Shown piece by piece: positions 21,901 to 62,207 of a DNA stretch of 64,000 nt (the stretch's first letter is position 1; the number at the start of each line of letters is the position of its first letter). The translations under genes were made by a program, and so were the position numbers. Origin of the DNA: Squalus acanthias (lineage: Eukaryota); NCBI GenBank assembly GCA_030390025.1, contig JASTWF010000333.1, positions 124,001-188,000 of the forward strand, given 5' to 3'. The notes beneath the pieces are model-generated. The model was not told where the DNA came from, did not search any database, and was given only the letters and a program-made list of their open reading frames with translations.

Positions 21901-21918
21901 TTCTCCCCCCCCAAAAGA

Positions 21919-25875: not shown

Positions 25876-25954
25876 GATGGGTGATTCCCTGGATCCTTAG
25901 CTCCGAGTTCGTCCAAAAAGTTTGAGTGCGAAGTTTTTCAAAAGTTGATTAAAT

Positions 25955-39097: not shown

Positions 39098-40066
39098 AAC
39101 AACAACAACTTGTATTTATATAGCACCTTTAACACAGTAAAACGTTCCAAGGAGCTTCACAGGAGCATTATCAAACAAAATTTGACACCGAGCCGCATAA
39201 GGAGAAATTAGGGCAGATGATCAAAAGCTTGGTCAAAGAGGTAGGTTTTAAGGAGCGTCTTAAAAGAGGAAAGAGAGGTAGTGAGGCGGAGAGGTTTAGG
39301 CAGGGAATTCCAGAGCTTAGGGCCGAGGCAACAGAAGGCACGGCCACCAATGGTTGTGCAATTATAATCAGGGATGCTCAAGAGGCCAGAATTAGAGGAG
39401 CGCAGAAATCTCGTGGGGGTTGTGGGACTGGAGAAGATTACAAAGATAGGGAGGGGCGAGGCCTTGGAGGGATTTGAAAACAAGGATGAGAATTTGAAAA
39501 TCGAGGCATTGTTTAACTGGGAGCCAATGTAGGTCAGCGAGCACAGGAGTGATAAGTGAACAGGACTTGGTGCGAGTTAGGACACGGGCAGCCGAGTTTT
39601 GGATGACCTCAAGTTTATGTATGGTGGAATGTGGGAGGCCAGCCAGGAGTGCGTTGGAATAGTCAAGTCTAGTGATAACAAAGGCATGGATGAGGGTTTC
39701 AGCAGCAGATGAGCTGAGGCAGGGGCGGAGATCGGCGATGTTACGGAGGTGGAAATAGGCGGTCTTAGTTATGGCGCAGGCATGTGGTCGGAAGCTTATT
39801 TCAGGGTCAAATATGACACCAAGGTTGTGAACAGTCTGGTTCAGTCTCAGACAGTTGCCAGGGAGAGGGAAGGAGTCAGTGGCTAGGGAACGGAATTTGT
39901 GGCGGGGACTGAAGACAATGGCTTCGGTCTTCCCAATATTTAGTTGGAGGAAATTTCTGCTCATCCAGTACTGGATGTCAGCAGTCTGACAATTTAGAGA
40001 CAGTGGAGGGGTCGAGAGAAGTAGAGGTGAGGTAGAGCTGGGTGTCGTCAGTGTACATGTGGAAAC
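39098..40066 (-). mobile_element. 5'-truncated L2 LINE
   Basis: FHMYTDDT, WMSRNFLQLNIGKTE, LIHAFVITRLDYSNALL, LHWLPV, FKTLLKTYLF, and the L2 tail GCTATATAAATACAAG(TTG)n. Confidence 0.93.
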
Positions 40067-40156
40067 TTTAAAGGCAAATGTTGCAAGAATTCGGCTATCT
40101 CTTCTCTCATTCTTGCTATCTCTATCCCTGTACCTGTCATCTCAGTCCATGCTCCT
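40064..40156 (+). repeat. 93-bp direct repeat, copy 1 (proto-satellite seed)
   Basis: 87/93 identical to 61549-61641 by manual alignment. Confidence 0.92.
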
Positions 40157-43100
40157 ACTATCTCTACCCATCCTCCTTCTATCTCTACCTGTGAACCTGC
40201 TATCTCTACCCATGATGCTGCTGTCTCTACCCGTGATCCTGCTATCTCTACCTGTGATCCTGCTATCTCTACCCGTGATCCTGCTATCTCTACCCGTGAT
40301 GCTGCTATCTCTACCTGTGATCCTGCTATCTCTACCCGTGATGCTGCTATCTCTACCTGTGATCCTGCTATCTCTACCCGTGATCCTGCTATCTCTACCC
40401 GTGATCCTGCTATCTCTACCTGTGATCCTGCTATCTCTACCCGTGATGCTGCTATCTCTACCCGTGATCCTTCTATCTCTACCTGTGATCCTGCTATCTC
40501 TACCCGTGATCCTGCTATCTCTACCCATGATCCTGCTATCTCTACCCGTGATGCTGCTATCTCTACCCGTGATCCTTCTATCTCTACCTGTGATCCTGCT
40601 ATCTCTACCCGTGATCCTTCTATCTCTACCTGTGATCCTGCTATCTCTACCCGTGATCATTCTATCTCTACCTGTGATGCTGCTATCTCTACCCGTGATG
40701 CTGCTATCTCTACCTGTGATCCTGCTATCTCTACCCATGATCCTGCTATCTCTACCCGTGATCCTTCTATCTCTACCTGTGATCCTGCTATCTCTACCCG
40801 TGATCCTGCTATCTCTACCCGAGATCCTGCTATCTCTACCCGTGATGCTGCTATCTCTACCCGTGATCCTGCTATCTCTACCCATGATCCTGCTATCTCT
40901 ACCCATGATCCTGCTATCTCTACCTGTGATCCTGCTATCTCTACCCGTGATCCTGCTATCTCTACCTGTGATCCTGCTATCTCTACCTGTGATCCTTCTA
41001 TCTCTACCTGTGATCCTGCTATCTCTACCCGTAATCCTGCAATCTCTACCTGTGATCCTGCTATCTCTACCCGTGATCCTGCTATCTCTACCCATGATCC
41101 TGCTATCTCTACCTGTGATGCTGCTATCTCTACCCGTGATCCTGCTATCTCTACCTGTGATCCTGCTATCTCTACCCGTGATCCTGCTATCTCTACCCAT
41201 GATCCTGCTATCTCTACCCATGATCCTGCTATCTCTACCTGTGATCCTTCTATCTCTACCCGTGATCCTGCTATCTCTACCTGTGATGCTGCTATCTCTA
41301 CCCGTGATCCTTCTATCTCTACCCGTGATGCTGCTATCTCTACCCATGATCCTGCTATCTCTACCCGTGATGCTGCTATCTCTACCTGTGATCCTTCTAT
41401 CTCTACCCGTGATGCTGCTATCTCTACCCGTGATCCTTCTATCTCTACCCGTGATCCTGCTATCTCTATCCATGATCCTGCTATCTCTACCCGTGATGCT
41501 GCTATCTCTACCTGTGATCCTTCTATCTCTACCTGTGATCCTGCTATCTCTACCTGTGATCCTTCTATCTCTACCCGTGATCCTGCTATCTCTACCTGTG
41601 ATCCTTCTATCTCTACCCGTGATGCTGCTATCTCTACCTGTGATCCTGCTATCTCTACCTGTGATCCTTCTATCTCTACCCGTGATCCTTCTATCTCTAC
41701 CTGTGATCCTGCTATCTCTACCTGTGATCCTTCTATCTCTACCCGTGATCCTGCTATCTCTACCTGTGATCCTTCTATCTCTATCCGTGATGCTGCTATC
41801 TCTACCCGTGATCCTTCTATCTCTACCCGTGATCCTGCTATCTCTATCCATGATCCTGCTATCTCTACCCGTGATCCTGCTATCTCTACCCGTGATCCTT
41901 CTATCTCTACCCGTGATGCTGCTATCTCTACCCGTGATGCTGCTATCTCTACCCGTGATGCTGCTATCTCGACCCGTGATCCTGCTATCTCTACCCGTGA
42001 TGCTGCTATCTCTACCCGTGATCCTGCTATCTCTACCCGTGATCCTGCTATCTCTACCCGTGATCCTTCTATCTCTACCCATGATCCTGCTATCTCTACC
42101 CGTGATCCTGCTATCTCTACCTGTGATCCTGCTATCTCTACCTGTGATCCTGCTATCTCTACCTGTGATCCTTCTATCTCTACCTGTGATCCTGCTATCT
42201 CTACCCTTGATCCTGCTATCTCTACCTGTGATGCTGCTATCTCTACCCGTGATCCTGCTATCTCAACCCGTGATGCTGCTATCTCTACCCGTGATGCTGC
42301 TATCTCTACCCGTGATGCTGCTATCTCTACCTGTGATCCTTCTATCTCTACCCGTGATCCTGCTATCTCTACCCGTGATGCTGCTATCTCTACCCGTGAT
42401 GCTGCTATCTCTACCCGTGATGCTGCTATCTCTACCAGTGATCCTGCTATCTCTACCTGTGATCCTTCTATCTCTACCTGTGATCCTTCTATCTCTACCT
42501 GTGATCCTGCTATCTCTACCAGTGATCCTGCTATCTCTACCTGTGATCCTTCTATCTCTACCCGTGATCCTTCTATCTCTACCCGTGATCCTGCTATCTC
42601 TACCCGTGATCCTGCTATCTCTACCCGTGATCCTGCTATCTCTACCCGTGACGCTGCTATCTCTACCCGTGATCCTGCTATCTCTACCCGTGATGCTGCT
42701 ATCTCTACCCGTGATGCTGCTATCTCTACCTGTGATCCTGCTATCTCTACCTGTGATGCTGCTATCTCTACCCGTGATGCTGCTATCTCTACCTGTGATG
42801 CTGCTATCTCTACCCGTGATGCTGCTATCTCTACCTGTGATCCTGCTATCTCTACCCGTGATCCTTCTATCTCTACCTGTGATCCTTCTATCTCTACCTG
42901 TGATCCTTCTATCTCTACCTGTGATCCTGCTATCTCTACATGTGATCCTGCTATCTCTACCCGTGATGCTGCTATCTCTACCCGTGATCCTTCTATCTCT
43001 ACCCGTGATGCTGCTATCTCTACCCGTGATCCTTCTATCTCTACCCGTGATCCTTCTATCTCTACCCGTGATGCTGCTATCTCTACCCGTGATCCTTCTA

Positions 43101-46100
43101 TCTCTACCCGTGATCCTTCTATCTCTACCCGTGATGCTGCTATCTCTACCCGTGATCCTTCTATCTCTACCCGTGATCCTTCTATCTCTACCCGTGATGC
43201 TGCTATCTCTACCCGTGATCCTTCTATCTCTACCCGTGATCCTTCTATCTCTACCCGTGATGCTGCTATCTCTACCCGTGATCCTTCTATCTCTACCTGT
43301 GATCCTGCTATCTCTACCTGTGATCCTTCTATCTCTACCCGTGATGCTGCTATCTCTACCCGTGATCCTTCTATCTCTACCCGTGATCCTGCTATCTCTA
43401 CTTGTGATCCTGCTATCTCTACCCGTGATCCTTCTATCTCTACCCGTGATGCTGCTATCTCTACCCGTGATCCTTCTATCTCTACCTGTGATCCTTCTAT
43501 CTCTACCCGTGACGCTGCTATCTCTACCCGTGATCCTTTTATCTCTACCTGTGATCCTTCTATCTCTACCCGTGACGCTGCTATCTCTACCCGTGATCCT
43601 TCTATCTCTACCTGTGATCCTTCTATCTCTACCTGTGATCCTTCTATCTCTGCCAGTAATCCTGCTATCTCTACCTGTGATCCTGCTATCTCTACCCGTG
43701 ATGCTGCTATCTCTACCCGTGATCCTTCTATCTCTACCTGTGATCCTTCTATCTCTACCCGTGATGCTGCTATCTCTACCCGTGATCCTTTTATCTCTAC
43801 CTGTGATCCTTCTATCTCTACCTGTGATCCTGCTATCTCTACCCGTGCTCCTGCTATCTTTACCCATGATCCTGCTATCTCTACCTGTGATGCTGCTATC
43901 TCTACCCGTGATGCTGCTATCTCTACCCATGATCCTGCTATCTCTACCTGTGATCCTTCTATCTCTACCTGTGATCCTTCTATCTCTACCTGTGATCCTG
44001 CTATCTCTACCCGTGATCCTGCTATCTCTACCCATGATCCTGCTATCTCTACCTGTGATGCTGCTATCTCTACCCGTGTTCCTGCTATCTCTACCTGTGA
44101 TCCTGCTATCTCTACCTGTGATCCTGCTATCTCTACCCGTGATCCTGCTATCTCTACCCATGAACCTGCTATCTCTACCCATGATCCTGCTATCTCTACC
44201 CGTGATCCTTCTATCTCTACCCGTGATGCTGCTATCTCTACCCGTGATCCTTCTATCTCTACCCGTGATCCTGCTATCTCTACCCATGATCCTGCTATCT
44301 CTACCCGTGATGCTGCTATCTCTACCCGTGATCCTTCTATCTCTACCTGTGATCCTGCTATCTCTACCTGTGATCCTTCTATCTCTACCCGTGATCCTGC
44401 TATCTCTACCTGTGATCCTTCTATCTCTACCCGTGATGCTGCTATCTCTACCCGTGATCCTTCTATCTCTACCCGTGATCCTGCTATCTCTATCCATGAT
44501 CCTGCTATCTCTACCCGTGATGCTGCTATCTCTACCCGTGATCCTTCTATCTCTACCTGTGATCCTGCTATCTCTACCTGTGATCCTTCTATCTCTACCC
44601 GTGATGCTGCTATCTCTACCCGTGATGCTGCTATCTCTACCCGTGATCCTGCTATCTCTACCCGTGATGCTGCTATCTCTACCCGTGATGCTGCTATCTC
44701 TACCCGTGATGCTGCTATCTCTACCCGTGATGCTGCTATCTCTACCTGTGATCCTTCTATCTCTACCCGTGATCCTGCTATCTCTACCTGTGATGCTGCT
44801 ATCTCTACCCGTGATCCTGCTATCTCAACCCGTGATGCTGCTATCTCTACCCGTGATGCTGCTATCTCTACCCGTGATGCTGCTATCTCTACCTGTGATC
44901 CTTCTATCTCTACCCGTGATCCTGCTATCTCTACCCGTGATGCTGCTATCTCTACCCGTGATGCTGCTATCTCTACCCGTGATGCTGCTATCTCTACCAG
45001 TGATCCTGCTATCTCTACCTGTGATCCTTCTATCTCTACCTGTGATCCTTCTATCTCTACCTGTGATCCTGCTATCTCTACCAGTGATCCTGCTATCTCT
45101 ACCTGTGATCCTTCTATCTCTACCCGTGATCCTTCTATCTCTACCCGTGATCCTGCTATCTCTACCCGTGATCCTGCTATCTCTACCCGTGATCCTGCTA
45201 TCTCTACCCGTGACGCTGCTATCTCTACCCGTGATCCTGCTATCTCTACCCGTGATGCTGCTATCTCTACCCGTGATGCTGCTATCTCTACCTGTGATCC
45301 TGCTATCTCTACCTGTGATGCTGCTATCTCTACCCGTGATGCTGCTATCTCTACCTGTGATGCTGCTATCTCTACCCGTGATGCTGCTATCTCTACCTGT
45401 GATCCTGCTATCTCTACCCGTGATCCTTCTATCTCTACCTGTGATCCTTCTATCTCTACCTGTGATCCTTCTATCTCTACCTGTGATCCTGCTATCTCTA
45501 CATGTGATCCTGCTATCTCTACCCGTGATGCTGCTATCTCTACCCGTGATCCTTCTATCTCTACCCGTGATGCTGCTATCTCTACCCGTGATCCTTCTAT
45601 CTCTACCCGTGATCCTTCTATCTCTACCCGTGATGCTGCTATCTCTACCCGTGATCCTTCTATCTCTACCCGTGATCCTTCTATCTCTACCCGTGATGCT
45701 GCTATCTCTACCCGTGATCCTTCTATCTCTACCCGTGATCCTTCTATCTCTACCCGTGATGCTGCTATCTCTACCCGTGATCCTTCTATCTCTACCCGTG
45801 ATCCTTCTATCTCTACCCGTGATGCTGCTATCTCTACCCGTGATCCTTCTATCTCTACCTGTGATCCTGCTATCTCTACCTGTGATCCTTCTATCTCTAC
45901 CCGTGATGCTGCTATCTCTACCCGTGATCCTTCTATCTCTACCCGTGATCCTGCTATCTCTACTTGTGATCCTGCTATCTCTACCCGTGATCCTTCTATC
46001 TCTACCCGTGATGCTGCTATCTCTACCCGTGATCCTTCTATCTCTACCTGTGATCCTTCTATCTCTACCCGTGACGCTGCTATCTCTACCCGTGATCCTT

Positions 46101-49100
46101 TTATCTCTACCTGTGATCCTTCTATCTCTACCCGTGACGCTGCTATCTCTACCCGTGATCCTTCTATCTCTACCTGTGATCCTTCTATCTCTACCTGTGA
46201 TCCTTCTATCTCTGCCAGTAATCCTGCTATCTCTACCTGTGATCCTGCTATCTCTACCCGTGATGCTGCTATCTCTACCCGTGATCCTTCTATCTCTACC
46301 TGTGATCCTTCTATCTCTACCCGTGATGCTGCTATCTCTACCCGTGATCCTTTTATCTCTACCTGTGATCCTTCTATCTCTACCTGTGATCCTGCTATCT
46401 CTACCCGTGCTCCTGCTATCTTTACCCATGATCCTGCTATCTCTACCTGTGATGCTGCTATCTCTACCCGTGATGCTGCTATCTCTACCCATGATCCTGC
46501 TATCTCTACCTGTGATCCTTCTATCTCTACCTGTGATCCTTCTATCTCTACCTGTGATCCTGCTATCTCTACCCGTGATCCTGCTATCTCTACCCATGAT
46601 CCTGCTATCTCTACCTGTGATGCTGCTATCTCTACCCGTGTTCCTGCTATCTCTACCTGTGATCCTGCTATCTCTACCTGTGATCCTGCTATCTCTACCC
46701 GTGATCCTGCTATCTCTACCCATGAACCTGCTATCTCTACCCATGATCCTGCTATCTCTACCCGTGATCCTTCTATCTCTACCCGTGATGCTGCTATCTC
46801 TACCCGTGATCCTTCTATCTCTACCCGTGATCCTGCTATCTCTACCCATGATCCTGCTATCTCTACCCGTGATGCTGCTATCTCTACCCGTGATCCTTCT
46901 ATCTCTACCTGTGATCCTGCTATCTCTACCTGTGATCCTTCTATCTCTACCCGTGATCCTGCTATCTCTACCTGTGATCCTTCTATCTCTACCCGTGATG
47001 CTGCTATCTCTACCCGTGATCCTTCTATCTCTACCCGTGATCCTGCTATCTCTATCCATGATCCTGCTATCTCTACCCGTGATGCTGCTATCTCTACCCG
47101 TGATCCTTCTATCTCTACCTGTGATCCTGCTATCTCTACCTGTGATCCTTCTATCTCTACCCGTGATGCTGCTATCTCTACCCGTGATGCTGCTATCTCT
47201 ACCCGTGATCCTGCTATCTCTACCCGTGATGCTGCTATCTCTACCCGTGATGCTGCTATCTCTACCCGTGATGCTGCTATATCTACCTGTGATCCTTCTA
47301 TCTCTACCTGTGATCCTGCTATCTCTACCCGTGATGCTGCTATCTCTACCCGTGATGCTGCTATCTCTACCCGTGATGCTGCTATCTCTACCAGTGATCC
47401 TGCTATCTCTACCTGTGATCCTTCTATCTCTACCTGTGATCCTTCTATCTCTACCTGTGATCCTGCTATCTCTACCCGTGATCCTGCTATCTCTACCTGT
47501 GATCCTGCTATCTCTACCCGTGATGCTGCTATCTCTACCCGTGATCTTTCTATCTCTGCCCGTGATCCTTCTATCTCTACCCGTGATCCTGCTATCTCTA
47601 CCCGTGATCCTGCTATCTCTACCCGTGATCCTGCTATCTCTACCCGTGACGCTGCTATCTCTACCCGTGATCCTGCTATCTCTACCCGTGATGCTGCTAT
47701 CTCTACCCGTGATGCTGCTATCTCTACCTGTGATCCTGCTATCTCTACCTGTGATGCTGCTATCTCTACCCGTGATGCTGCTATCTCTAACTGTGATGCT
47801 GCTATCTCTACCCGTGATCCTTCTATCTCTACCCGTGATCCTTCTATCTCTACCTGTGATCCTGCTATCTCTACCTGTGATCCTGCTATCTCTACCCGTG
47901 ATGCTGCTATCTCTACCCGTGATCCTTCTATCTCTACCCGTGATGCTGCTATCTCTACCTGTGATCCTGCTATCTCTACTTGTGATCCTGCTATCTCTAC
48001 CCGTGATCCTTCTATCTCTACCCGTGATGCTGCTATCTCTACCCGTGATCCTTCTATCTCTACCTGTGATCCTTCTATCTCTACCCGTGACGCTGCTATG
48101 TCTACCCGTGATCCTTTTATCTCTACCTGTGATCCTTCTATCTCTACCTGTGATCCTTCTATCTCTACCTGTGATCCTTCTATCTCTACCTGTAATCCTG
48201 CTATCTCTACCTGTGATCCTGCTATCTCTACCCGTGATGCTGCTATCTCTACCCGTGATCCTTCTATCTCTACCTGTGATCCTTCTATCTCCACCCGTGA
48301 TGCTGCTATCTCTACCCGTGATCCTTTTATCTCTACCTGTGATCCTTCTATCTCTACCTGTGATCCTGCTATCTCTACCCGTGCTCCTGCTATCTTTACC
48401 CATGATCCTGCTATCTCTACCTGTGATCCTTCTATCTCTACCTGTGATCCTTCTATCTCTACCTGTGATCCTGCTATCTCTACCCATGATCCTGCTATCT
48501 CTACCTGTGATGCTGCTATCTCTACCCGTGATCCTGCTATCTCTACCCATGATCCTGCTATCTCTACCTGTGATGCTGCTATCTCTACCCGTGTTCCTGC
48601 TATCTCTACCCGTGATGCTGCTATCTCTACCCATGATCCTGCTATCTCTACCTGTGATCCTTCTATCTCTACCTGTGATCCTTCTATCTCTACCTGTGAT
48701 CCTGCTATCTCTACCCGTGATCCTGCAATCTCTACCCATGATCCTGCTATCTCTACCTGTGATCCTGCTATCTCTACCCGTGATCCTGCTATCTCTACCC
48801 ATGAACCTGCTATCTCTACCCATGATCCTGCTATCTCTACCCGTGATCCTTCTATCTCTACCCGTGATGCTGCTATCTCTACCCGTGATCCTTCTATCTC
48901 TACCCGTGATCCTGCTATCTCTACCCATGATCCTGCTATCTCTACCCGTGATGCTGCTATCTCTACCCGTGATCCTTCTATCTCTACCTGTGATCCTGCT
49001 ATCTCTACCTGTGATCCTTCTATCTCTACCCGTGATCCTGCTATCTCTACCTGTGATCCTTCTATCTCTACCCGTGATGCTGCTATCTCTACCCGTGATC

Positions 49101-52100
49101 CTTCTATCTCAACCGTGATCCTGCTATCTCTATCCATGATCCTGCTATCTCTACCCGTGATGCTGCTATCTCTACCCGTGATCCTTCTATCTCTACCTGT
49201 GATCCTGCTATCTCTACCTGTGATCCTTCTATCTCTACCCGTGATGCTGCTATCTCTACCCGTGATGCTGCTATCTCTACCCGTGATCCTGCTATCTCTA
49301 CCCGTGATGCTGCTATCTCTACCCGTGATGCTGCTATCTCTACCCGTGATGCTGCTATATCTACCTGTGATCCTTCTATCTCTACCTGTGATCCTGCTAT
49401 CTCTACCCGTGATGCTGCTATCTCTACCCGTGATGCTGCTATCTCTACCCGTGATGCTGCTATCTCTACCAGTGATCCTGCTATCTCTACCTGTGATCCT
49501 TCTATCTCTACCTGTGATCCTTCTATCTCTACCTGTGATCCTGCTATCTCTACCCGTGATCCTGCTATCTCTACCTGTGATCCTGCTATCTCTACCCGTG
49601 ATGCTGCTATCTCTACCCGTGATCTTTCTATCTCTGCCCGTGATCCTTCTATCTCTACCCGTGATCCTGCTATCTCTACCCGTGATCCTGCTATCTCTAC
49701 CCGTGATCCTGCTATCTCTACCCGTGACGCTGCTATCTCTACCCGTGATCCTGCTATCTCTACCCGTGATGCTGCTATCTCTACCCGTGATGCTGCTATC
49801 TCTACCTGTGATCCTGCTATCTCTACCTGTGATGCTGCTATCTCTACCCGTGATGCTGCTATCTCTAACTGTGATGCTGCTATCTCTACCCGTGATGCTG
49901 CTCTCTCTACCCGTGATCCTTCTATCTCTACCCGTGATCCTTCTATCTCTACCCGTGATCCTGCTATCTCTACCCGTGATGCTGCTGTCTCTACCTGTGA
50001 TCCTGCTATCTCTACCCGTGATTCTTCTATCTCTACCCGTGATGCTGCTATCTCTACCCGTGATGCTGCTATCTCTACCCGTGATCCTGCTATCTCTACC
50101 CGTGATCCTTCTATCTCTACCTGTGATCCTTCTATCTCTACCTGTGATCCTTCTATCTCTACCTTTGATCCTGCTATCTCTACCAGTGATGCTGCTATCT
50201 CTACCCGTGATGCTGCTATCTCTACCCGTGATGCTGTTATCTCTACCCGTGATGCTGCTATCTCTACCCATGATCCTGCTATCTCTACCCGTGATGCTGC
50301 TATCTCTACCCGTGATCCTTTTATCTCGTCCTGTGATCCTTCTATCTCTACCTGTGATCCTTCTATCTCCACCTGTGATCCTTCTATCTCTACCTGTGAT
50401 CCTGTTATCTCTACCCGTGATCCTGCTATCTCTACCCGTGATGCTGCTATCTCTACCCGTGATCCTTCTATCTCTACCTGTGATCCTGCTATCTCTACCT
50501 GTGATCCTGCTATCTCTACCCGTGATGCTGCTATCTCTACCCGTGATCCTTCACTCTCTACCCGTGATGCTGCTATCTCTACCTGTGATCCTGATATCTC
50601 GACCTGTGATCCTGCTATCTCTACCTGTGATCCTGCTATCTCTACCCGTGATCCTTCTATCTCTACCCGTGATGCTGCTATCTCTACCCGTGATGCTGCT
50701 ATCTCTACCCGTGATCCTTCTATCTCTACCCGTGATGCTGCTATCTCTACCTGTGATCCTGCTATCTCTACCTGTGATCCTGCTATCTCTACCTGTGATC
50801 CTGCTATCTCAACCCGTGATCCTGCTATCTCTACCCGTGATGCTGCTATCTCTACCCGTGATCCTTCTATCTCTACCCGTGACGCTGCTATCTCTACCCG
50901 TGATCCTGCTATCTCTACCTGTGATCCTGCTATCTCTACCTGTGATCCTTCTATCTCTACCCGTGACGCTGCTATCTCTACCTGTGATCCTGCTATCTCT
51001 ACCCGTGATCCTGCTATCTCTACCCGTGATGCTGCTATCTCTACCCGTGATCCTGCTATCTCTACCTGTGATCCTGCTATCTCTACCTGTGATCCTGCTA
51101 TCTCTACCTGTGATCCTTCTATCTCTACCTGTGATCATTCTATCTCTACCTGTGATCCTTCTATCTCTACCCGTGACGCTGCTATCTCTACCTGTGATCC
51201 TGCTATCTGTACCCGTGATGCTGCTATCTCTACCCGTGATCTTTCTATCTCTGCCCGTGATCCTGCTATCTCTACCCGTGACGCTGCTATCTCTACCCGT
51301 GATCCTGCTATCTCTACCCGTGATGCTGCTATCTCTACCCGTGATGCTGCTATCTCTACCTGTGATCCTGCTATCTCTACCTGTGATGCTGCTATCTCTA
51401 CCCGTGATGCTGCTATCTCTACCCGTGATTCTGCTATCTCTACCCGTGATCCTGCTATCTCTACCCGTGATCCTTCTATCTCTACCTGTGATCCTTCTAT
51501 CTCTACCTGTGATCCTTCTATCTCTACCTTTGATCCTGCTATCTCTACCAGTGCTGCTGCTATCTCTACCCGTGATGCTGCTATCTCTACCCGTGATGCT
51601 GCTATCTCTACCCGTGATGCTGCTATCTCTACCCATGATCCTGCTATCTCTACCCGTGATGCTGCTATCTCTACCCGTGATCCTTTTATCTCTACCTGTG
51701 ATCCTTCTATCTCTACCTGTGATCCTTCTATCTCTACCTGTGATCCTTCTATCTCTACCTGTGATCCTGCTATCTCTACCCGTGATCCTGCTATCTCTAC
51801 CCGTGATGCTGCTATCTCTACCCGTGATCCTTCTATCTCTACCTGTGATCCTGCTATCTCTACCTGTGATCCTGCTATCTCTACCCGTGATGCTGCTATC
51901 TCTACCCGTGATCCTTCTATCTCTACCCGTGACGCTGCTATCTCTACCCGTGATCCTTCTATCTCTACCTGTGATCCTTCTATCTCTACCCGTGACGCTG
52001 CTATCTCTACCCGTGATCCTTCTATCTCTACCTGTGATCCTGCTATCTCTACCTGTGATCCTGCTATCTCTACCCGTGATCCTGCTATCTCTACCCGTGA

Positions 52101-55100
52101 CGCTGCTATCTCTACCCGTGATCCTGCTATCTCTACCCGTGATGCTGCTATCTCTACCCGTGATGCTGCTATCTCTACCTGTGATCCTGCTATCTCTACC
52201 TGTGATGCTGCTATCTCTACCCGTGATGCTGCTATCTCTACCCGTGATGCTGCTATCTCTACCCGTGATCCTGCTATCTCTACCCGTGATCCTTCTATCT
52301 CTACCTGTGATCCTTCTATCTCTACCTGTGATCCTTCTATCTCTACCTTTGATCCTGCTATCTCTACCAGTGATGCTGCTATCTCTACCCGTGATGCTGC
52401 TATCTCTACCCGTGATGCTGCTATCTCTACCCATGATCCTTCTATCTCTACCCGTGACGCTGCTATCTCTACCTGTGATCCTTCTATCTCTACCTGTGAT
52501 CCTGCTATCTCTACCTGTGATCCTGCTATCTCTACCCGTGATCCTGCTATCTCTACCCGTGACGCTGCTATCTCTACCCGTGATCCTGCTATCTCTACCC
52601 GTGATGCTGCTATCTCTACCCGTGATGCTGCTATCTCTACCTGTGATCCTGCTATCTCTACCTGTGATGCTGCTATCTCTACCCGTGATGCTGCTATCTC
52701 TACCCGTGATGCTGCTATCTCTACCCGTGATCCTGCTATCTCTACCCGTGATCCTTCTATCTCTACCTGTGATCCTTCTATCTCTACCTGTGATCCTTCT
52801 ATCTCTACCTTTGATCCTGCTATCTCTACCAGTGATGCTGCTATCTCTACCCGTGATGCTGCTATCTCTACCCGTGATGCTGCTATCTCTACCCATGATC
52901 CTGCTATCTCTACCCGTGATGCTGCTATCTCTACCTGTGATCCTTTTATCTCTACCTGTGATCCTTCTATCTCTACCTGTGATCCTTCTATCTCTACCTG
53001 TGATCCTTCTATCTCTACCTGTGATCCTGCTATCTCTACCCTTGATCCTGCTATCTCTACCCGTGATGCTGCTATCTCTACCCGTGATCCTTCTATCTCT
53101 ACCTGTGATCCTGCTATCTCTACCTGTGATCCTGCTATCTCTACCCGTGATGCTGCTATCTCTACCCGTGATCCTTCTATCTCTACCCGTGATGCTGCTA
53201 TCTCTACCCGTGATCCTGCTATCTCTACCTGTGATCCTGCTATCTCTACCCGTGATCCTTCTATCTCTACCCGTGATGCTGCTATCTCTACCTGTGATCC
53301 TGCTATCTCTACCTGTGATGCTGCTATCTCTACCCGTGATCCTGCTATCTCTACCCGTGATGCTGCTATCTCTACCCGTGATCCTGCTATCTCTACCCGT
53401 GATCCTTCTATCTCTACCTATGATCCTGCTATCTCTACCTGTGATCCTGCTATCTCTACCCGTGATGCTGCTATCTCTACCCGTGATCCTTCTATCTCTA
53501 CCCGTGATGCTGCTATCTCTACCCGTGATCCTTCTATCTCTACCCGTGATCCTTCTATCTCTACCTGTGATCCTGCTATCTCTACCCGTGATCCTTCTAT
53601 CTCTACCCGTGATGCTGCTATCTCTACCCGTGATCCTTCTATCTCTACCCGTGATCCTTCTATCTCTACCCGTGATGCTGCTATCTCTACCCGTGATGCT
53701 GCTATCTCTACCCGTGATCCTTCTATCTCTACCCGTGATGCTGCTATCTCTACCTGTGATCCTGCTATCTCTACCTGTGATGCTGCTATCTCTACCCGTG
53801 ATCCTGCTATCTCTACCCGTGATCCTGCTATCTCTACCTGTGATCCTGCTATCTCTACCCCTGATGCTGCTATCTCTACCTGTGATCCTGCTATCTCTAC
53901 CTGTGATCCTGCTATCTCTACCCGTGATGCTGCTATCTCTACCCGTGATCCTTCTATCTCTACCCGTGACGCTGCTATCTCTCCCCGTGATCCTGCTATC
54001 TCTACCTGTGATCCTGCTATCTCTACCTGTGATCCTTCTATCTCTACCCGTGACGCTGCTATCTCTACCTGTGATCCTGCTATCTCTACCCGTGATCCTG
54101 CTATCTCTACCCGTGATGCTGCTATCTCTACCCGTGATCCTGCTATCTCTACCTGTGACCCTGCTATCTCTACCTGTGATCCTGCTATCTCTACCTGTGA
54201 TCCTTCTATCTCTACCCGTGATCTTGCTATCTCTACCTGTGATCCTTCTATCTCTACCCGTGATCCTGCTATCTCTACCCGTGACGCTGCTATCTCTACC
54301 CGTGATCCTGCTATCTCTACCCGTGATGCTGCTATCTCTACCTGTGATTCTGCTATCTCTACCTGTGATCTTTCTATCTCTACCCGTGATCCTGCTATCT
54401 CTACCTGTGATCCTGCTATCTCTACCTGTGATCCTGCTATCTCTACCCGTGATGCTGCTATCTCTACCCGTGATGCTGCTATCTCTACCCGTGATCCTGC
54501 TATCTCTACCCGTGATCCTGCTGTCTCTACCCGTGATCCTGATATCTCTACCTGTGATGCTGCTATCTCTACCTGTGATCTTTCTATCTCTACCCGTGAT
54601 GCTGCTATCTCTACCCGTGATCCTGCTATCTCTACCCGTGATCCTGCTATCTCTACCCGTGATCCTGCTATCTCTACCCGTGATGCTGCTATCTCTACCC
54701 GTGATCCTGCTATCTCTACCTGTGATCCTTCTATCTCTACCCGTGATCCTGCTATCTCTACCCGTGATCCTGCTATCTCTACCCGTGATCCTGCTATCTC
54801 TACCCGTGATGCTGCTATCTCTACCCGTGATGCTGCTATCTCTACCCGTGATCCTGCTATCTCTACCCGTGATCCTTCTATCTCTACCCATGATCCTGCT
54901 ATCTCTACCCGTGATGCTGCTATCTCTACCCGTGATCCTGCTATTTCTACCTGTGATCCTTCTATCTCTACCTGTGATCCTTCTATCTCTACCTGTGATC
55001 CTGCTATCTCTACCCGTGATCCTGCTATCTCTACCCATGATCCTGCTATCTCTACCTGTGATGCTGCTATCTCTACCCGTGTTCCTGCAATCTCTACCTG

Positions 55101-58100
55101 TGATCCTGCTATCTGTACCCGTGATCCTGCTATCTCTACCCATGATCCTGCTATCTCTACCCATGATCCTGCTATCTCTACCCGTGATCCTTCTATCTCT
55201 ACCCGTGATGCTGCTATCTCTACCCATGATCCTTCTATCTCTACCCGTGATCCTGCTATCTCTATCCATGATCCTGCTATCTCTACCCGTGATGCTGCTA
55301 TCTCTACCCGTGATCCTTCTATCTCTACCTGTGATCCTGCTATCTCTACCTGTGATCCTTCTATCTCTACCCGTGATCCTGCTATCTCTACCTGTGATCC
55401 TTCTATCTCTACCCGTGATGCTGCTATCTCTACCCGTGATCCTTCTATCTCTACCCGTGATGCTGCTATCTCTACCCGTGATCCTGCTATCTCTACCCGT
55501 GATGCTGCTATCTCTACCCGTGATCCTGCTATCTCTACCCGTGATGCTGCTATCTCTACCCGTGATCCTGCTATCTCTATCCATGATCCTGCTATCTCTA
55601 CCCGTGATGCTGCTATCTCTACCCGTGATCCTTCTATCTCTACCTGTGATCCTGCTATCTCTACCTGTGATCCTTCTATCTCTACCCGTGATGCTGCTAT
55701 CTCTACCAGTGATCCTGCTATCTCTACCCGTGATGCTGCTATCTCTACCTGTGATCCTTCTATCTCTACCTGTGATCCTGCTATCTCTACCCGTGATCCT
55801 GCTATCTCTACCCGTGATCCTGCTATCTCTACCCGTGACGCTGCTATCTCTACCTGTGATCCTGCTATCTGTACCCGTGATGCTGCTATCTCTACCCGTG
55901 ATCTTTCTATCTCTGCCCGTGATCCTTCTATCTCTACCCGTGATCCTGCTATCTCTACCCGTGATCCTGCTATCTCTACCCGTGACGCTGCTATCTCTAC
56001 CCGTGATCCTGCTATCTCTACCCGTGATGCTGCTATCTCTACCCGTGATGCTGCTATCTCTACCTGTGATCCTGCTATCTCTACCTGTGATGCTGCTATC
56101 TCTACCCGTGATGCTGCTATCTCTACCTGTGATGCTGCTATCTCTACCCGTGATGCTGCTATCTCTACCCGTGATCCTTCTATCTCTACCCGTGATCCTT
56201 CTATCTCTACCCGTGATCCTTCTATCTCTACCCGTGATCCTGCTATCTCTACCCGTGATGCTGCTGTCTCTACCTGTGATCCTGCTATCTCTACCCGTGA
56301 TTCTTCTATCTCTACCCGTGATGCTGCTGTCTCTACCCGTGATCCTTCTATCTCTACCCGTGATGCTGCTATCTCTACCCGTGATGCTGCTATCTCTACC
56401 CGTGATGCTGCTATCTCTACCCGTGATCCTGCTATCTCTACCCGTGATCCTTCTATCTCTACCTGTGATCCTTCTATCTCTACCTGTGATCCTTCTATCT
56501 CTACCTTTGATCCTGCTATCTCTACCAGTGATGCTGCTATCGCTACCCGTGATGCTGCTATCTCTACCCGTGATGCTGCTATCTCTACCCGTGATGCTGC
56601 TATCTCTACCCATGATCCTGCTATCTCTACCCGTGATGCTGCTATCTCTACCCGTGATCCTTTTATCTCTACCTGTGATCCTTCTATCTCTACCTGTGAT
56701 CCTTCTATCTCTACCTGTGATCCTTCTATCTCTACCTGTGATCCTGCTATCTCTACCCGTGATCCTGCTATCTCTACCCGTGATGCTGCTATCTCTACCC
56801 GTGATCCTTCTATCTCTACCTGTGATCCTGCTATCTCTACCTGTGATCCTGCTATCTCTACCCGTGATGCTGCTATCTCTACCCGTGATCCTTCTATCTC
56901 TACCTGTGATGCTGCTATCTCTACCTGTGATCCTGCTATCTCTACCTGTGATCCTGCTATCTCAACCCGTGATCCTTCTATCTCTACCCGTGATGCTGCT
57001 ATCTCTACCTGTGATCCTGCTATCTCTACCTGTGATGCTGCTATCTCTACCCGTGATCCTGCTATCTCTACCTGTGATCCTGCTATCTCTACCCGTGATG
57101 CTGCTATCTCTACCCGTGATCCTTCTATCTCTACTTGTGATCCTGCTATCTCTACCCATGATGCTGCTATCTCTACCCGTGATCCTTCTATCTCTACCCG
57201 TGATGCTGCTATCTCTACCCGTGATCCTTCTATCTCTACCCGTGATCCTTCTATCTCTACCTGTGATCCTGCTATCTCTACCTGTGATCCTTCTATCTCT
57301 ACCCGTGATGCTGCTATCTCTACCCGTGATCCTTCTATCTCTACCCGTGATCCTTCTATCTCTACCCGTGACCCTGCTATCTCTACCTGTGATCCTGCTA
57401 TCTCTACCCGTGATGCTGCTATCTCTACCCGTGATCCTGCTATCTCTACCCGTGATGCTGCTGTCTCTACCCGTGATCCTGATATCTCTACCTGTGATGC
57501 TGCTATCTCTACCTGTGATCTTTCTATCTCTACCCGTGATGCTGCTATCTCTACCCGTGATCCTGCTATCTCTACCCGTGATCCTGCTATCTCTACCCGT
57601 GATCCTGCTATCTCTACCCGTGATGCTGCTATCTCTACCCGTGATCCTGCTATCTCTACCTGTGATCCTTCTATCTCTACCCGTGATCCTGCTATCTCTA
57701 CCCGTGATCCTGCTATCTCTACCCGTGATCCTGCTATCTCTACCCGTGATGCTGCTATCTCTACCCGTGATGCTGCTATCTCTACCCGTGATCCTGCTAT
57801 CTCTACCCGTGATCCTTCTATCTCTACCCATGATCCTGCTATCTCTACCCGTGATGCTGCTATCTCTACCCGTGATCCTGCTATTTCTACCTGTGATCCT
57901 TCTATCTCTACCTGTGATCCTTCTATCTCTACCTGTGATCCTGCTATCTCTACCCGTGATCCTGCTATCTCTACCCATGATCCTGCTATCTCTACCTGTG
58001 ATGCTGCTATCTCTACCCGTGTTCCTGCAATCTCTACCTGTGATCCTGCTATCTGTACCCGTGATCCTGCTATCTCTACCCATGATCCTGCTATCTCTAC

Positions 58101-61100
58101 CCATGATCCTGCTATCTCTACCCGTGATCCTTCTATCTCTACCCGTGATGCTGCTATCTCTACCCATGATCCTTCTATCTCTACCCGTGATCCTGCTATC
58201 TCTATCCATGATCCTGCTATCTCTACCCGTGATGCTGCTATCTCTACCCGTGATCCTTCTATCTCTACCTGTGATCCTGCTATCTCTACCTGTGATCCTT
58301 CTATCTCTACCCGTGATCCTGCTATCTCTACCTGTGATCCTTCTATCTCTACCCGTGATGCTGCTATCTCTACCCGTGATCCTTCTATCTCTACCCGTGA
58401 TGCTGCTATCTCTACCCGTGATCCTGCTATCTCTACCCGTGATGCTGCTATCTCTACCCGTGATCCTGCTATCTCTACCCGTGATGCTGCTATCTCTACC
58501 CGTGATCCTGCTATCTCTATCCATGATCCTGCTATCTCTACCCGTGATGCTGCTATCTCTACCCGTGATCCTTCTATCTCTACCTGTGATCCTGCTATCT
58601 CTACCTGTGATCCTTCTATCTCTACCCGTGATGCTGCTATCTCTACCAGTGATCCTGCTATCTCTACCCGTGATGCTGCTATCTCTACCTGTGATCCTTC
58701 TATCTCTACCTGTGATCCTGCTATCTCTACCCGTGATCCTGCTATCTCTACCCGTGATCCTGCTATCTCTACCCGTGACGCTGCTATCTCTACCTGTGAT
58801 CCTGCTATCTGTACCCGTGATGCTGCTATCTCTACCCGTGATCTTTCTATCTCTGCCCGTGATCCTTCTATCTCTACCCGTGATCCTGCTATCTCTACCC
58901 GTGATCCTGCTATCTCTACCCGTGACGCTGCTATCTCTACCCGTGATCCTGCTATCTCTACCCGTGATGCTGCTATCTCTACCCGTGATGCTGCTATCTC
59001 TACCTGTGATCCTGCTATCTCTACCTGTGATGCTGCTATCTCTACCCGTGATGCTGCTATCTCTACCTGTGATGCTGCTATCTCTACCCGTGATGCTGCT
59101 ATCTCTACCCGTGATCCTTCTATCTCTACCCGTGATCCTTCTATCTCTACCCGTGATCCTTCTATCTCTACCCGTGATCCTGCTATCTCTACCCGTGATG
59201 CTGCTGTCTCTACCTGTGATCCTGCTATCTCTACCCGTGATTCTTCTATCTCTACCCGTGATGCTGCTGTCTCTACCCGTGATCCTTCTATCTCTACCCG
59301 TGATGCTGCTATCTCTACCCGTGATGCTGCTATCTCTACCCGTGATGCTGCTATCTCTACCCGTGATCCTGCTATCTCTACCCGTGATCCTTCTATCTCT
59401 ACCTGTGATCCTTCTATCTCTACCTGTGATCCTTCTATCTCTACCTTTGATCCTGCTATCTCTACCAGTGATGCTGCTATCGCTACCCGTGATGCTGCTA
59501 TCTCTACCCGTGATGCTGCTATCTCTACCCGTGATGCTGCTATCTCTACCCATGATCCTGCTATCTCTACCCGTGATGCTGCTATCTCTACCCGTGATCC
59601 TTTTATCTCTACCTGTGATCCTTCTATCTCTACCTGTGATCCTTCTATCTCTACCTGTGATCCTTCTATCTCTACCTGTGATCCTGCTATCTCTACCCGT
59701 GATCCTGCTATCTCTACCCGTGATGCTGCTATCTCTACCCGTGATCCTTCTATCTCTACCTGTGATCCTGCTATCTCTACCTGTGATCCTGCTATCTCTA
59801 CCCGTGATGCTGCTATCTCTACCCGTGATCCTTCTATCTCTACCTGTGATGCTGCTATCTCTACCTGTGATCCTGCTATCTCTACCTGTGATCCTGCTAT
59901 CTCAACCCGTGATCCTTCTATCTCTACCCGTGATGCTGCTATCTCTACCTGTGATCTTGCTATCTCTACCTGTGATGCTGCTATCTCTACCCGTGATCCT
60001 GCTATCTCTACCTGTGATCCTGCTATCTCTACCCGTGATGCTGCTATCTCTACCCGTGATCCTTCTATCTCTACTTGTGATCCTGCTATCTCTACCCATG
60101 ATGCTGCTATCTCTACCCGTGATCCTTCTATCTCTACCCGTGATGCTGCTATCTCTACCCGTGATCCTTCTATCTCTACCCGTGATCCTTCTATCTCTAC
60201 CTGTGATCCTGCTATCTCTACCTGTGATCCTTCTATCTCTACCCGTGATGCTGCTATCTCTACCCGTGATCCTTCTATCTCTACCCGTGATCCTTCTATC
60301 TCTACCCGTGACCCTGCTATCTCTACCTGTGATCCTGCTATCTCTACCCGTGATCCTTCTATCTCTACCTGTGATCCTTCTATCTCTACCCGTGATCCTG
60401 CTATCTCTACCTGTGATCCTTCTATCTCTACCCGTGATGCTGCTATCTCTACCCGTGATGCTGCTATCTCTACCTGTGATTCTGCTATCTCTACCTGTGA
60501 TCTTTCTATCTCTACCCGTGATCCTGCTATCTCTACCTGTGATCCTGCTATCTCTACCTGTGATCCTGCTATCTCTACCCGTGATGCTGCTATCTCTACC
60601 TGTGATCCTGCTATCTCTACCTGTGATCTTTCTATCTCTACCCGTGATCCTGCTATCTCTACCTGTGATCCTGCTATCTCTACCCGTGATGCTGCTATCT
60701 CTACCCGTGATCCTGCTATCTCTACCCGTGATCCTGATATCTCTACCTGTGATGCTGCTATCTCTACCCGTGATCCTGCTATCTCTACCCGTGATCCTGC
60801 TATCTCTACCCGTGATCCTGCTATCTCTACCCGTGATGCTGCTATCTCTACCCGTGATCCTGCTATCTCTACCTGTGATCCTTCTATCTCTACCCGTGAT
60901 CCTGCTATCTCTACCCGTGATCCTGCTATCTCTACCCGTGATCCTGCTATCTCTACCCGTGATGCTGCTATCTCTACCCGTGATCCTGCTATCTCTACCC
61001 GTGATCCTTCTATCTCTACCCATGATCCTGCTATCTCTACCTGTGATCCTGCTATCTCTACCCGTGATGCTGCTATCTCTACCCGTGATCCTGCTATCTC

Positions 61101-61211
61101 TACCCGTGATGCTGCTATCTCTACCCGTGATCCTGCTATCTCTACCTGTGATCCTGCTATCTCTACCCGTGCTCCTGCTATCTCTACCCGTGATGCTGCT
61201 GTCTCTACCCA
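40157..61211. repeat. ~21-kb satellite, ~1000 x 21-bp unit GTGAT(C/G)CT(G/T)CTATCTCTACC(C/T)
   Basis: Continuous tandem array with a single phase shift (a 20-bp unit near 49111) and higher-order duplications. Confidence 0.99.
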
Positions 61212-61550
61212 TCTTCTTCTTCTTAGGCAGTTGCTCGGAACCGAGGATGACTTGCTTCCACATTAAAAATGAGTTCGCAGGTGACTGATGAGTCCAATGC
61301 GGGACCTACAGTCTCTGTCACAGGTGGGGCAGACGGTGGTTGAAGGGGCGGGTGGGTGGGGTGCTTGGGTTGACGTGAGCTCCTTCCAGTGTTTGCGCTT
61401 GGCTTCCACTTGCTCCCGGTGAAGAGACTCGAGGTGTTCAGCACCTTCCCGGATGCTTCTCCTCCACTTTGAGCGGTCTTGGGCCAGGGATTCCCAGGTG
61501 TCGGAGGGGTTGTTGCACTTTTTCAAGGAGGCTTTGAGGGTGTCCTTGAA
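61212..61550 (-). mobile_element. 5'-truncated RTE-clade LINE 3' end
   Basis: FKDTLKASLKKC...WESLAQDRSKWR...CPTCDRDCRSRIGLISHLRTH (C2H2 finger), a short 3' UTR and an (AAG)n tail. Confidence 0.93.
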
Positions 61551-61641
61551 CTTTAAGGGCAAATGTTGCAAGAATTCTGCTATCTCTTCCCTCATTCTTG
61601 CTATCTCTATCCATGTTCCTGTCATCTCAGTCTATGCTCCT
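61549..61641 (+). repeat. 93-bp direct repeat, copy 2
   Basis: Matches 40064-40156. Confidence 0.92.
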
Positions 61642-62034
61642 GCATTCAATCAGTGTCTGGATGGATCCTGGAAGATTAAGTCTTCTCACTCCAGCCATCA
61701 CTAATGACAACTGTTCACTTTCCCAGGACACCTGCTAAACGCCACTACAATGAGATCTATTCTGTCACAGAGTCACCAAAGAAAAAAGTACTGGAACTCT
61801 GAAGGTACAGTTCAGGTGCCTGTTTGGTCCAAGGGTGCTCTAAAATATATTCCAGTAGCCTCTCAAGGATCATGGGGCTGTGTTGTATGCCACACAACTT
61901 TGCTTTAGAAAGAGGCCTCTTCTTGGAGTTACTAAAAGAAGGCGGCACCTAAAGGCTGTAGGGGGGGATCAGGTAGATGAGCAGCAGCATGAGGAGGGTG
62001 TGGAGAGCAACCTTCCAAACGCAAGGGAATATGA

Positions 62035-62207
62035 GCAGCGCTGCCGCTAAGCTGCGCAGCTGCATGGCCACGCAGCGGTCTGGAGGTCCCGCGCAGGTCG
62101 CTCACTGGCTTTTAAATGGGAGTAACCGCACGTGCATGAATATTTGAATGGGTTGCGCAGCCACTTAAAGGGACGGCGCATCCCCCAAAAAATTAAAGGG
62201 AACATTG
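62035..62207. mobile_element. Possible DNA-transposon (hAT-like) end fragment
   Basis: GC-rich block ending AAATTAAAGGGAACATTG (reverse complement CAATGTTCCC, hAT-like); the partner TIR is not seen. Confidence 0.3.

What the first reader, a model, noticed from the sequence alone, without database searches (positions are those of the whole stretch)
40064..61641. Birthplace of a 21-kb satellite: array wedged between an RTE 3' tail and a 93-bp duplication holding the proto-repeat
Seen: the layout is [93-bp copy 1, 40064-40156][~1000 x 21 bp][RTE (AAG)n tail to 5' truncation, - strand][93-bp copy 2, 61549-61641]. The copies are 87/93 identical and contain about three degenerate 21-bp units (e.g. 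TCTTGCTATCTCTATCCATGT) that grade into the array. Only the copy touching the RTE 3' end expanded. Inference: the 93 bp is a long target-site duplication, and the array was seeded at the TPRT priming site (reiterative or slipped synthesis, or repair) and then amplified. The 6 mismatches date the event well before the near-identical higher-order duplications. The duplicated segment also starts right at the 5' truncation point of the adjacent L2.
Basis: partly seen in the sequence, partly recalled or inferred. Interest (0 to 1): 0.75.

Follow-up and report, generated by a model that had tools for sequence, protein, structure and literature searches.

The report
Giant minisatellite beside its unexpanded seed
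A 21-kb run of 21-base repeats in a shark-like genome grew from a few worn repeat units in one of two copies of a short duplicated stretch around an old jumping gene, so the unexpanded seed survives next door, but nothing shows that the jumping gene's own copying made the repeats.

Summary
The layout is real: 93-bp copies 87/93 identical, about 1,000 in-register 21-bp units, then an RTE-type LINE tail. Two related species about 6% diverged carry the same RTE/copy 2/flank junction, and the 93-mer is low-copy. The RTE and the proto-units therefore predate that split, and no empty site was seen. The array runs in register from worn host units, with no homology found to either LINE fragment; ordinary slippage and unequal exchange explain it. 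'Seeded at the TPRT priming site' has no positive support.

That the 93 bp is the RTE's target-site duplication is only slightly more likely than not. In favour: both ends meet the RTE, there is 2-nt microhomology, and the age fits. Against: RTE duplications are usually 7-15 bp; both window copies share an AG where relatives keep the repeat-consensus TA; and relatives showed no second copy (weak test). A later templated duplication, for example at the neighbouring L2's 5' junction, is a near-equal rival. The left side in relatives could not be examined.

Verdict: a well-preserved example of a known process. Interest 0.33.

The parts
39098..40063 (-). 3' fragment of an L2-type LINE (clade label from tail type and recall), (AAC)4 tail at 39098-39109, 5'-truncated at the FHMY(T)DD reverse-transcriptase motif; 1-4 nt microhomology into copy 1; apparent 3-bp target duplication (AAC)
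   Evidence: about 50% identity to fish RT proteins; F at motif position -3 in 107 of 116 homologues; its codon includes base 40064
40064..40156 (+). Copy 1 of the 93-bp duplication
   Evidence: 87/93; a second contig over about 61560-61641 with the copy-1 letter at 61633 in a second individual, X5
40093..40155 (+). Three degenerate proto-units u1-u3 in copy 1 (8, 4, 7 mismatches to the array consensus)
40156..40197 (+). Unhomogenised edge units u4-u5; u4 looks like a hybrid of a u2-type start and a u3-type end (inference)
40156..61212 (+). 21-bp tandem array, about 1,003 units, consensus TGCTATCTCTACCCGTGATCC, four common variable sites (unit positions 2, 14, 15, 20), ends at position 16 of a unit against the LINE tail
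42214..47274 (+). Internal duplication with a 122-unit period (42214-44712 = 44776-47274, 0 mismatches in 119 units); recent, or an assembly duplication
54519..60335 (+). Internal duplication with a 140-unit period (54519-57395 versus 57459-60335, 1 mismatch in 137 units)
61213..61224 (-). (AAG)4 3' tail of the RTE-type LINE
61213..61550 (-). 5'-truncated RTE-type LINE (last 94 codons of the ORF, C2H2 finger, short 3' UTR); high-copy family; 2-nt microhomology (61549-61550) with copy 2; junction shared with organisms D and E
   Evidence: family members run on unlike the window after 61550 in 4 of 4 runs; contigs 61522-62104 unbroken in X9 and X11
61549..61641 (+). Copy 2 of the 93-bp duplication, unexpanded; proto-units at 61578-61640
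61642..62038 (+). Low-copy right flank, orthologous in D and E (21 and 25 listed differences in 397 bp); begins with a fourth, partial proto-unit

Best explanation
An old AT-rich site followed by about three worn 21-bp proto-units received an RTE-type LINE on the minus strand before organisms A, D and E split (shown). The insertion duplicated about 93 bp of target, an unusually long target-site duplication (inferred). An L2-type LINE sits at the left edge of the duplication, probably because the same TT|AA step between an A-run and a T-run is nicked on either strand (inferred). Later, in-register slippage among the proto-units of the left copy made a u2-type unit in tandem. Unequal exchange then amplified and homogenised it to about 1,000 copies, most recently by block duplications of 122 and 140 units (descent and register shown; mechanism from established minisatellite biology). 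The LINE's part is passive: it left an unexpanded spare copy of the seed 336 bp from the array end. No function is implied.
For: Duplication ends coincide with the RTE 5' junction (2-nt microhomology) and, across the array, with its tail. Copy 1 versus copy 2 differ by 6.5% (95% range 2.4-14%), matching the 5.5-6.3% between A and D/E. At 61557 and 61633 copy 1 keeps the letter found in D and E. Branch counts alone fit a pre-split duplication at least as well as a post-split one (0.0073 versus 0.0029, or 0.0063 versus 0.0057). The duplication starts with A in element orientation, as for most animal RTEs with A-rich tails (PMC6007223, Table 2). Long duplications are a known rare class: 1 of 25 zebrafish L2 inserts in wild-type DT40 cells (PMC2666801), and 'many' in one HeLa L1 set (PMC4245944). 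Units continue in the proto-unit register, and 9 of 10 units with T at position 12 also carry A at 15, the u2 state.
Against: RTE duplications are mostly 7-15 bp (PMC6007223 citing Ichiyanagi and Okada 2008). Both window copies have AG at u3 positions 10-11 while D and E have TA, the repeat consensus. This needs a reversion in D/E or conversion between the two copies in A. D and E show no second copy and their contigs are not broken by a shared 30-mer; a simulation gives that outcome a probability of only 0.28-0.75 if copy 1 were present. The array consensus is 3 of 21 bases from u2, more than about 3% per lineage predicts. The tail now abuts position 16 of a unit, not the end of the duplicated segment, so that junction must have been remodelled.
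Confidence: 0.4

Rival explanations
1. Late templated duplication. The RTE inserted first with a short duplication (about 5-6 bp, beginning AACTT). Soon after the A versus D/E split, copy 1 was made in A's lineage by copying the DNA beyond the RTE. The likeliest occasion is 5'-end joining of the L2: its cDNA end annealed to the right-hand instead of the left-hand short repeat, copied 93 bp and switched back to the RTE tail. An exchange with an RTE-free allele would give the same product. The array then grew from copy 1.
For: The AG doublet shared by both A copies but not by D/E needs only one event. No copy 1 was seen in D/E (weak). The L2 5' end overlaps copy 1 by 1-4 nt. About half of zebrafish L2 copies have 5' extra bases, a large fraction templated from flanking DNA in cell assays (PMC4245944). 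A nick after base 5 of the segment gives a 3-of-3 terminal match to the (CTT)n tail.
Against: It needs two template switches and a 93-bp extra, whereas the paper speaks of 'several' extra nucleotides. The copies are as diverged as the species, so the event must fall just after the split (mean about 0.75 of the time to the split) with the doublet in that short gap (0.0005-0.001 of the likelihood). No 7-15-bp end of the segment matches the tail. The negative in D/E is weak because X1 also failed to show copy 1, which its species has.
Confidence: 0.33
2. One reading: long RTE target duplication, with the first extra units synthesised during target-primed reverse transcription or its repair (slipped or reiterative copying at the primer), and ordinary amplification afterwards.
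For: The extra units lie outside the duplicated 93 bp, between it and the tail. The primer end at base 93 matches the tail at 4 of 6 bases. Post hoc hint only: the u4/u5 border and the common TTCT unit start (285 of 1,000 units) resemble a u3 end joined to three tail bases.
Against: No tail-derived bases interrupt the register at the u3/u4 border. Expansion of one of two copies is a 50% outcome. The TTCT variant is a single substitution from the consensus, among 39 of 63 possible variants present. One targeted literature search found no precedent for reiterative copying of target DNA (one paper, on Alu A-tail expansion; listing only).
Confidence: 0.12
3. A longer array already existed before the RTE arrived. 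The duplication covered several more units, and copy 2 lost them by an in-register deletion before the species split.
For: Both array edges share C at position 12 and A at 15, a type absent from copy 2. The consensus is 3 of 21 bases from u2. The flank after copy 2 starts like a unit, more so in D/E (61644 T).
Against: Copy 2 has the same three units in A, D and E with no inserted letters listed (table 4), so the loss must be old. It needs an extra event.
Confidence: 0.08
4. The repeat was imported: a dispersed satellite or a 3' transduction carried by the RTE transcript, primed on the similar proto-units.
For: Other notes on this genome describe large or widespread arrays (e1-7790172, e1-7939187; unchecked). 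The unit could not be searched genome-wide.
Against: The graded, in-register transition from u1-u3; the low copy number of the 93-mer; no look-alike among annotated windows of this scan (limited coverage).
Confidence: 0.04
5. Assembly artefact: a false join or false duplication created the layout.
For: Two near-perfect 2.5-2.9-kb internal duplications; a one-base error at 61961; no record spans the array.
Against: The RTE/copy 2/flank junction is in contigs of X1, X9 and X11. A copy-1-type piece ending at 61641 is in a second individual from another study (X5). Six independent mismatches separate the copies. Only the array length remains in doubt.
Confidence: 0.03

Closest known systems
Minisatellite birth by slippage or unequal crossing-over from short local repeats (Haber and Louis 1998, seen only as described in passages of PMC6947457)
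   Same: A locally born array that continues in register from host sequence and grows by slippage, conversion or unequal exchange.
   Different: The seed is three worn whole units rather than 5-10-bp flanking repeats; an unexpanded copy of the seed survives nearby; at 21 kb the array is far beyond the up-to-100-unit size the review gives.
Long target-site duplications (L-TSD, over 20 bp) of LINE inserts: ZfL2-2 in DT40 (PMC2666801, passages); L1.3 in HeLa (Gilbert et al., as cited in PMC4245944 section 8)
   Same: Direct repeat far longer than the clade norm around a 5'-truncated LINE, with 5' microhomology.
   Different: Those are de novo inserts of L1 and L2 in cell culture with a known empty site. 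Here the element is RTE-type, the empty site is unseen, and an array separates the left copy from the tail.
Flank-templated 5' extra nucleotides of L2-clade LINEs (Kajikawa et al. 2012, as cited in PMC4245944)
   Same: An L2 5' end joined to a copy of nearby DNA through microhomology.
   Different: Described extras are 'several' nucleotides; here it would be 93 bp taken from beyond another element.
Transposon-derived tandem repeats: Alu-, B1-, LINE- and LTR-derived mini- and microsatellites (PMC9659126, PMC3812793, PMC6947457; passages)
   Same: An array abutting a retroelement 3' tail.
   Different: The unit comes from host target DNA, not from the element or its tail.
Double insertion at one target site (McGurk and Barbash 2018, PMC5932611; abstract only); TSDs as re-cleavable sites (PMC3812793, passage)
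   Same: Two elements whose ends meet the same few bases (L2 and RTE 5' junctions both at the first bases of the 93-mer).
   Different: There the elements themselves become the repeat unit; here the elements are of different clades and did not expand.

Membership tests
RTE-clade target-site duplication | Direct repeat abutting the element's 5' end | tested here: met
   Copy 2 starts at the RTE 5' junction with 2-nt microhomology
RTE-clade target-site duplication | Direct repeat abutting the 3' tail | tested here: not met
   21 kb of array intervenes and the tail joins position 16 of a unit
RTE-clade target-site duplication | Length 7-15 bp (peak 10-12) | tested here: not met
   93 bp against PMC6007223 and PMC4245944; fits only the rare L-TSD class
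RTE-clade target-site duplication | First base A with an A-rich tail; T-stretch about 10 nt upstream; primer pairs with the tail | tested here: inconclusive
   First base A is met; only TT upstream; primer matches the tail at 4 of 6 with 2 terminal bases
RTE-clade target-site duplication | Single copy at an empty orthologous site | tested here: inconclusive
   Both relatives laid already carry the RTE; no RTE-free relative was among the 4 of 11 runs laid
RTE-clade target-site duplication | Copies as old as the insertion (both present in all species with the element) | tested here: inconclusive
   Divergence fits; the AG/TA doublet and the lack of a second copy in D/E lean against
RTE-clade LINE (61213-61550) | ORF C-terminus with C2H2 finger, homologous to endonuclease plus RT proteins; microsatellite tail; high copy | tested here: met
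   zf-C2H2 E 8.6e-4, below the Pfam cut-off; 15 homologues, 10 with an RT domain; (AAG)4 tail; summed depth about 1e6. That this end is typical of RTE is recalled.
RTE-clade LINE (61213-61550) | Groups with RTE elements in an RT phylogeny | not testable with these tools
   The fragment lacks the RT domain and no named reference set is held
L2-clade LINE (39098-40063) | RT C-terminal half, short-repeat tail, 3-5-bp duplication | tested here: met
   About 50% identity to fish RT proteins; (GTT)4 tail; AAC at both ends, overlapping the tail
L2-clade LINE (39098-40063) | Groups with L2 in an RT phylogeny | not tested
   Hits carry no clade names; the label is recalled
Transposon-derived satellite | Unit homologous to the adjacent element | tested here: not met
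   No match of the 93-mer to the RTE or L2 fragments; a 24-bp CR1 resemblance scored 46 against a shuffle maximum of 58
Single-locus minisatellite | Head-to-tail units of tens of bases with interspersed variants and diverged edge units | tested here: met
   75 unit types, four common variable sites, edge gradient
Single-locus minisatellite | Confined to one locus; length polymorphic | not testable with these tools
Dispersed repeat (93-mer) | Many genomic copies | tested here: not met
   One contig over 61574-61684 in X1, X9 and X11, two in X5, beside depths of 1e4-1e6 on neighbouring repeats; diverged copies could be missed

The most novel reading that the evidence does not exclude
The LINE integration reaction itself (RTE priming, or the L2's 5'-end joining) copied host target DNA and slipped on its proto-repeat, laying down the first tandem units of what became a 21-kb array. 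LINE insertions would then seed minisatellites out of host sequence, not only out of their own tails, and each such event would leave an unexpanded copy of the seed as a built-in ancestral control.
Probability: 0.2. Interest if true: 0.6.

Novelty: new member of a known kind. Interest (0 to 1): 0.33.

Why it matters
Tandem arrays normally overwrite their own origin. Here a pre-expansion copy of the seed sits 336 bp from the array end and is conserved in two relatives. That lets one read which unit founded the array, bound its age (no older than the duplication, about as old as a 6% species split) and see how far the consensus has drifted. This is a useful case study, not a new mechanism. It would matter more if relatives or a genome-wide survey showed that LINE integration makes the first tandem copies of host DNA; the locus makes that question testable with one orthologue comparison.

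Tried and rejected
1) Whole-genome search: no genome is held for this window, so the unit and other RTE copies with long duplications could not be surveyed.
2) CR1 origin of the proto-unit: a 24-bp match at 5883-5907 scored 46, below the maximum of 200 shuffles (58); rejected.
3) Ordering L2 and RTE by decay: 8 of 60 versus 3 of 23 conserved residues changed, CpG observed/expected 0.58 versus 0.52; the homologues are too distant and no order can be drawn.
4) Metagenome scan for a 20-mer common to both copies: 1 hit, L001, 61% GC, 22-bp match only; chance.
5) Host gene: 47 flanking frames gave no Pfam hit. The long open frames across the array follow from a stop-free 21-bp unit and are not taken as a gene.
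7) Absence of a copy-1 contig in D and E is not taken as proof of absence, because X1 also lacked it.
8) u2- and u3-like endings at unit position 18 are not counted as relics, since 39 of 63 possible single variants occur.
9) Earlier scan notes: nothing near this place, by sequence, by words or in relatives.
10) Eight literature searches found no description of this locus or of an array born inside a long LINE target duplication. The library lacks most subscription journals, so this does not establish novelty. No supplements were read; the insert tables of PMC2666801 and PMC4245944 may hold longer templated extras.
Full report
OBSERVATION. The two 93-bp segments match at 87 of 93 bases with unrelated flanks (E 7.6e-34 in a self-BLAST). 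Between them lies one array of period 21 (40114-61210, 1004.7 copies). Cut in register from 40093 it gives 1,006 units of 75 types with a single 1-bp deletion; the first seven units are 8, 4, 7, 4, 3, 2 and 1 mismatches from the consensus. Copy 2 has the same three worn units (6, 3, 8 mismatches). The array stops at position 16 of a unit against (CTT)4 at 61213-61224. Two block duplications inside it are nearly perfect (119 units with 0 mismatches; 137 units with 1) and an older one differs by 0.7%. The description is accurate and far beyond chance (997 matches against 0 expected).

THE TWO LINES. 61213-61550 is the 3' end of a minus-strand LINE: 94 open codons ending in a C2H2 finger (below the Pfam cut-off), with 15 homologues, 10 of them bearing an RT domain. 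That this end and an (AAG)n tail mark the RTE clade is my recall; no phylogeny was possible. 39098-40063 is the 3' part of a second minus-strand LINE, about 50% identical to fish RT proteins, with a (GTT)4 tail; 'L2' is likewise a recalled label. Its 5' cut lies in the RT motif. F precedes the motif in 107 of 116 homologues, and that codon uses base 40064, so the L2 overlaps copy 1 by at least 1 and up to 4 nt. The left flank ends AAAATT and copy 1 begins AACTTT, so the site before the L2 was a TT|AA step between an A-run and a T-run, with a 3-bp repeat that fits the 3-5 bp given for L2 (PMC4245944). Both LINE 5' ends meeting this spot is best read as reuse of one nickable site (inference; compare PMC3812793). 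It is required under both main models below, so it does not decide between them. The relative age of the two LINEs could not be read.

OTHER INDIVIDUALS AND SPECIES. No genome is held. A run search with the right flank listed 11 runs: organism A in two samples, and organisms D and E at shares of about 0.25. Four of the 11 (X1, X5, X9, X11) were laid on 61500-62600. The results:
(a) D and E each have one fully aligned contig from 61522 to 62104, so the RTE junction, copy 2 and flank are shared and the RTE predates the split. Listed differences over 61549-62038 are 27 and 31 of 490 (5.5% and 6.3%; some may be hidden under piled repeats).
(b) Other RTE copies run on unlike the window after 61550 in 4 of 4 runs, giving 2-nt microhomology with copy 2.
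(c) The 93-mer is covered by one contig in X1, X9 and X11 and by two in X5, while neighbouring repeats have depths of 1e4-1e6; it is not a dispersed repeat.
(d) The second X5 contig has the copy-1 letter at 61633 and stops at 61641, so copy 1 exists in a second individual. The X5 copy-2 contig starts at 61560, as expected if that individual's copies share a 30-mer; mismatch 40093 is thus probably polymorphic (inference).
(e) In D and E, copy 2 has the copy-1 letter at 61557 and 61633, private T at 61605 and 61618, T at 61644, and TA at 61629-61630 where both window copies have AG. TA is the repeat consensus, so u3 is 5 rather than 8 mismatches from the consensus in D/E. I read the four remaining mismatch positions as equal to copy 2 in D/E because table 3 appears to list all differences carried by a sole contig; 49 rows were not shown.
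The left side (L2, copy 1, array) in D and E was not examined.

WHERE THE ARRAY CAME FROM. The unit does not match either adjacent LINE fragment, and a CR1 resemblance is chance. The proto-units are host DNA older than the species split, since D and E carry them in copy 2. The array continues in their register with no tail bases at the u3/u4 border. u2 of copy 2 is one base from an array variant, and 9 of the 10 units with T12 also have A15, against 59 of 1,000 units with A15 overall. That is a modest hint of a retained founder type, about p 0.06 for a single origin. Slippage followed by unequal exchange is the standard route (Haber and Louis 1998, as described in PMC6947457) and accounts for the edge gradient and the block duplications. 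I put local birth from the proto-units at about 0.9.

WAS IT SEEDED DURING INSERTION? Nothing requires it. One of two copies expanding is an even bet. In its favour, the extra units lie between the duplicated segment and the tail rather than inside it, and the common TTCT start (285 of 1,000 units) could be a relic of a u3 end joined to the tail; both are post hoc. The present tail junction is mid-unit, so under a long-TSD model the original primer junction has been remodelled and cannot testify. One search for precedent returned a single paper on Alu A-tail expansion (listing only).

IS THE 93 BP THE RTE'S TARGET DUPLICATION? For: its ends meet the element; there is 5' microhomology; it starts with A as for most animal RTEs (PMC6007223); the copies are as diverged as the species (6.5%, range 2.4-14%); branch counts fit a pre-split origin at least as well; and long duplications occur (1 of 25 in PMC2666801; many in one L1 set per PMC4245944). 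Against: RTE duplications are mostly 7-15 bp; the AG shared by both window copies needs a reversion or a conversion; and D/E contigs are unbroken with no second copy laid, which has probability 0.28-0.75 if copy 1 were there and is further weakened by the miss in X1. The rival is a later templated copy, most simply as a 5' extra of the L2, a described L2 behaviour though for short extras (PMC4245944). It explains the doublet with one event but needs two switches and a narrow time window. My split: long TSD with later ordinary growth 0.40; late templated duplication 0.33; long TSD with seeding during insertion 0.12; pre-existing longer array 0.08; imported repeat 0.04; artefact 0.03. These weights are judgement, not computed posteriors.

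COMPARISON AND NOVELTY. It works like a locally born minisatellite beside a LINE. It is not a transposon-derived satellite (unit test not met) and not a canonical RTE duplication (length and 3' abutment not met). Eight searches found no account of this arrangement, in a library that lacks most subscription journals. What I saw of the papers: PMC6007223, parts 1-3 of 6; PMC4245944, passages and section 8; PMC2666801, PMC3812793, PMC9659126, PMC12016303 and PMC6947457, passages; PMC5932611, abstract and outline. Ichiyanagi and Okada 2008, Kajikawa 2012, Haber and Louis 1998 and Gilbert et al. were seen only as cited. Unchecked notes on this genome describe several other arrays of tens of kilobases born at various sites, which suggests that large arrays are common here and lowers the surprise of one beside a LINE.

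VERDICT. Real and well preserved, a new member of a known kind. Its value is the surviving seed and a cheap decisive test: the sequence left of the RTE tail in organisms D and E. Interest 0.33.

Noticed in passing
window 21718-26137: Young Ty3/gypsy-type LTR retrotransposon: 1,325-aa open frame (21919-25896, minus strand; protease, RT, RNase H, integrase), LTRs 99.5% identical, 5-bp GTCTG duplication, inserted into another repeat.
   Followed up: partly
window 62225-62600: Only 8 differences in 376 bp (2.1%) against both D and E, versus about 6% at 61549-62038; possibly a constrained non-coding element. No Pfam hit.
   Followed up: no
window 61961: One base is left out in all four runs, so the window probably has a homopolymer error here.
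   Followed up: yes
window 40031-61288 and 39990-49118: The stop-free 21-bp unit gives open frames of 7,085 and 3,042 codons; the 1-bp deletion near 49110 swaps the frames. No sign of coding.
   Followed up: no
window 40198-61196: G at unit position 20 is never followed by T at position 2 of the next unit (0 cases; 311 G-G, 282 C-T, 400 C-G): three junction types, two of them separate one-step variants.
   Followed up: partly
window 62040-62276: Two short high-copy repeats (about 62058-62200 and 62207-62254) present in A, D and E.
   Followed up: no
window 9659-10198: DDE_Tnp_4 transposase fragment fused in frame behind a LINE-like stretch; related blocks at 10823-12639 and 15154-17223 are 67-73% alike.
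   Followed up: no
window 3795-4347: A 20-bp minisatellite (20.7 copies) next to a 13-bp one (9 copies).
   Followed up: no
window 35829-35926 and 36491-36588: Another direct repeat of about 98 bp, 87% identical, 662 bp apart.
   Followed up: no
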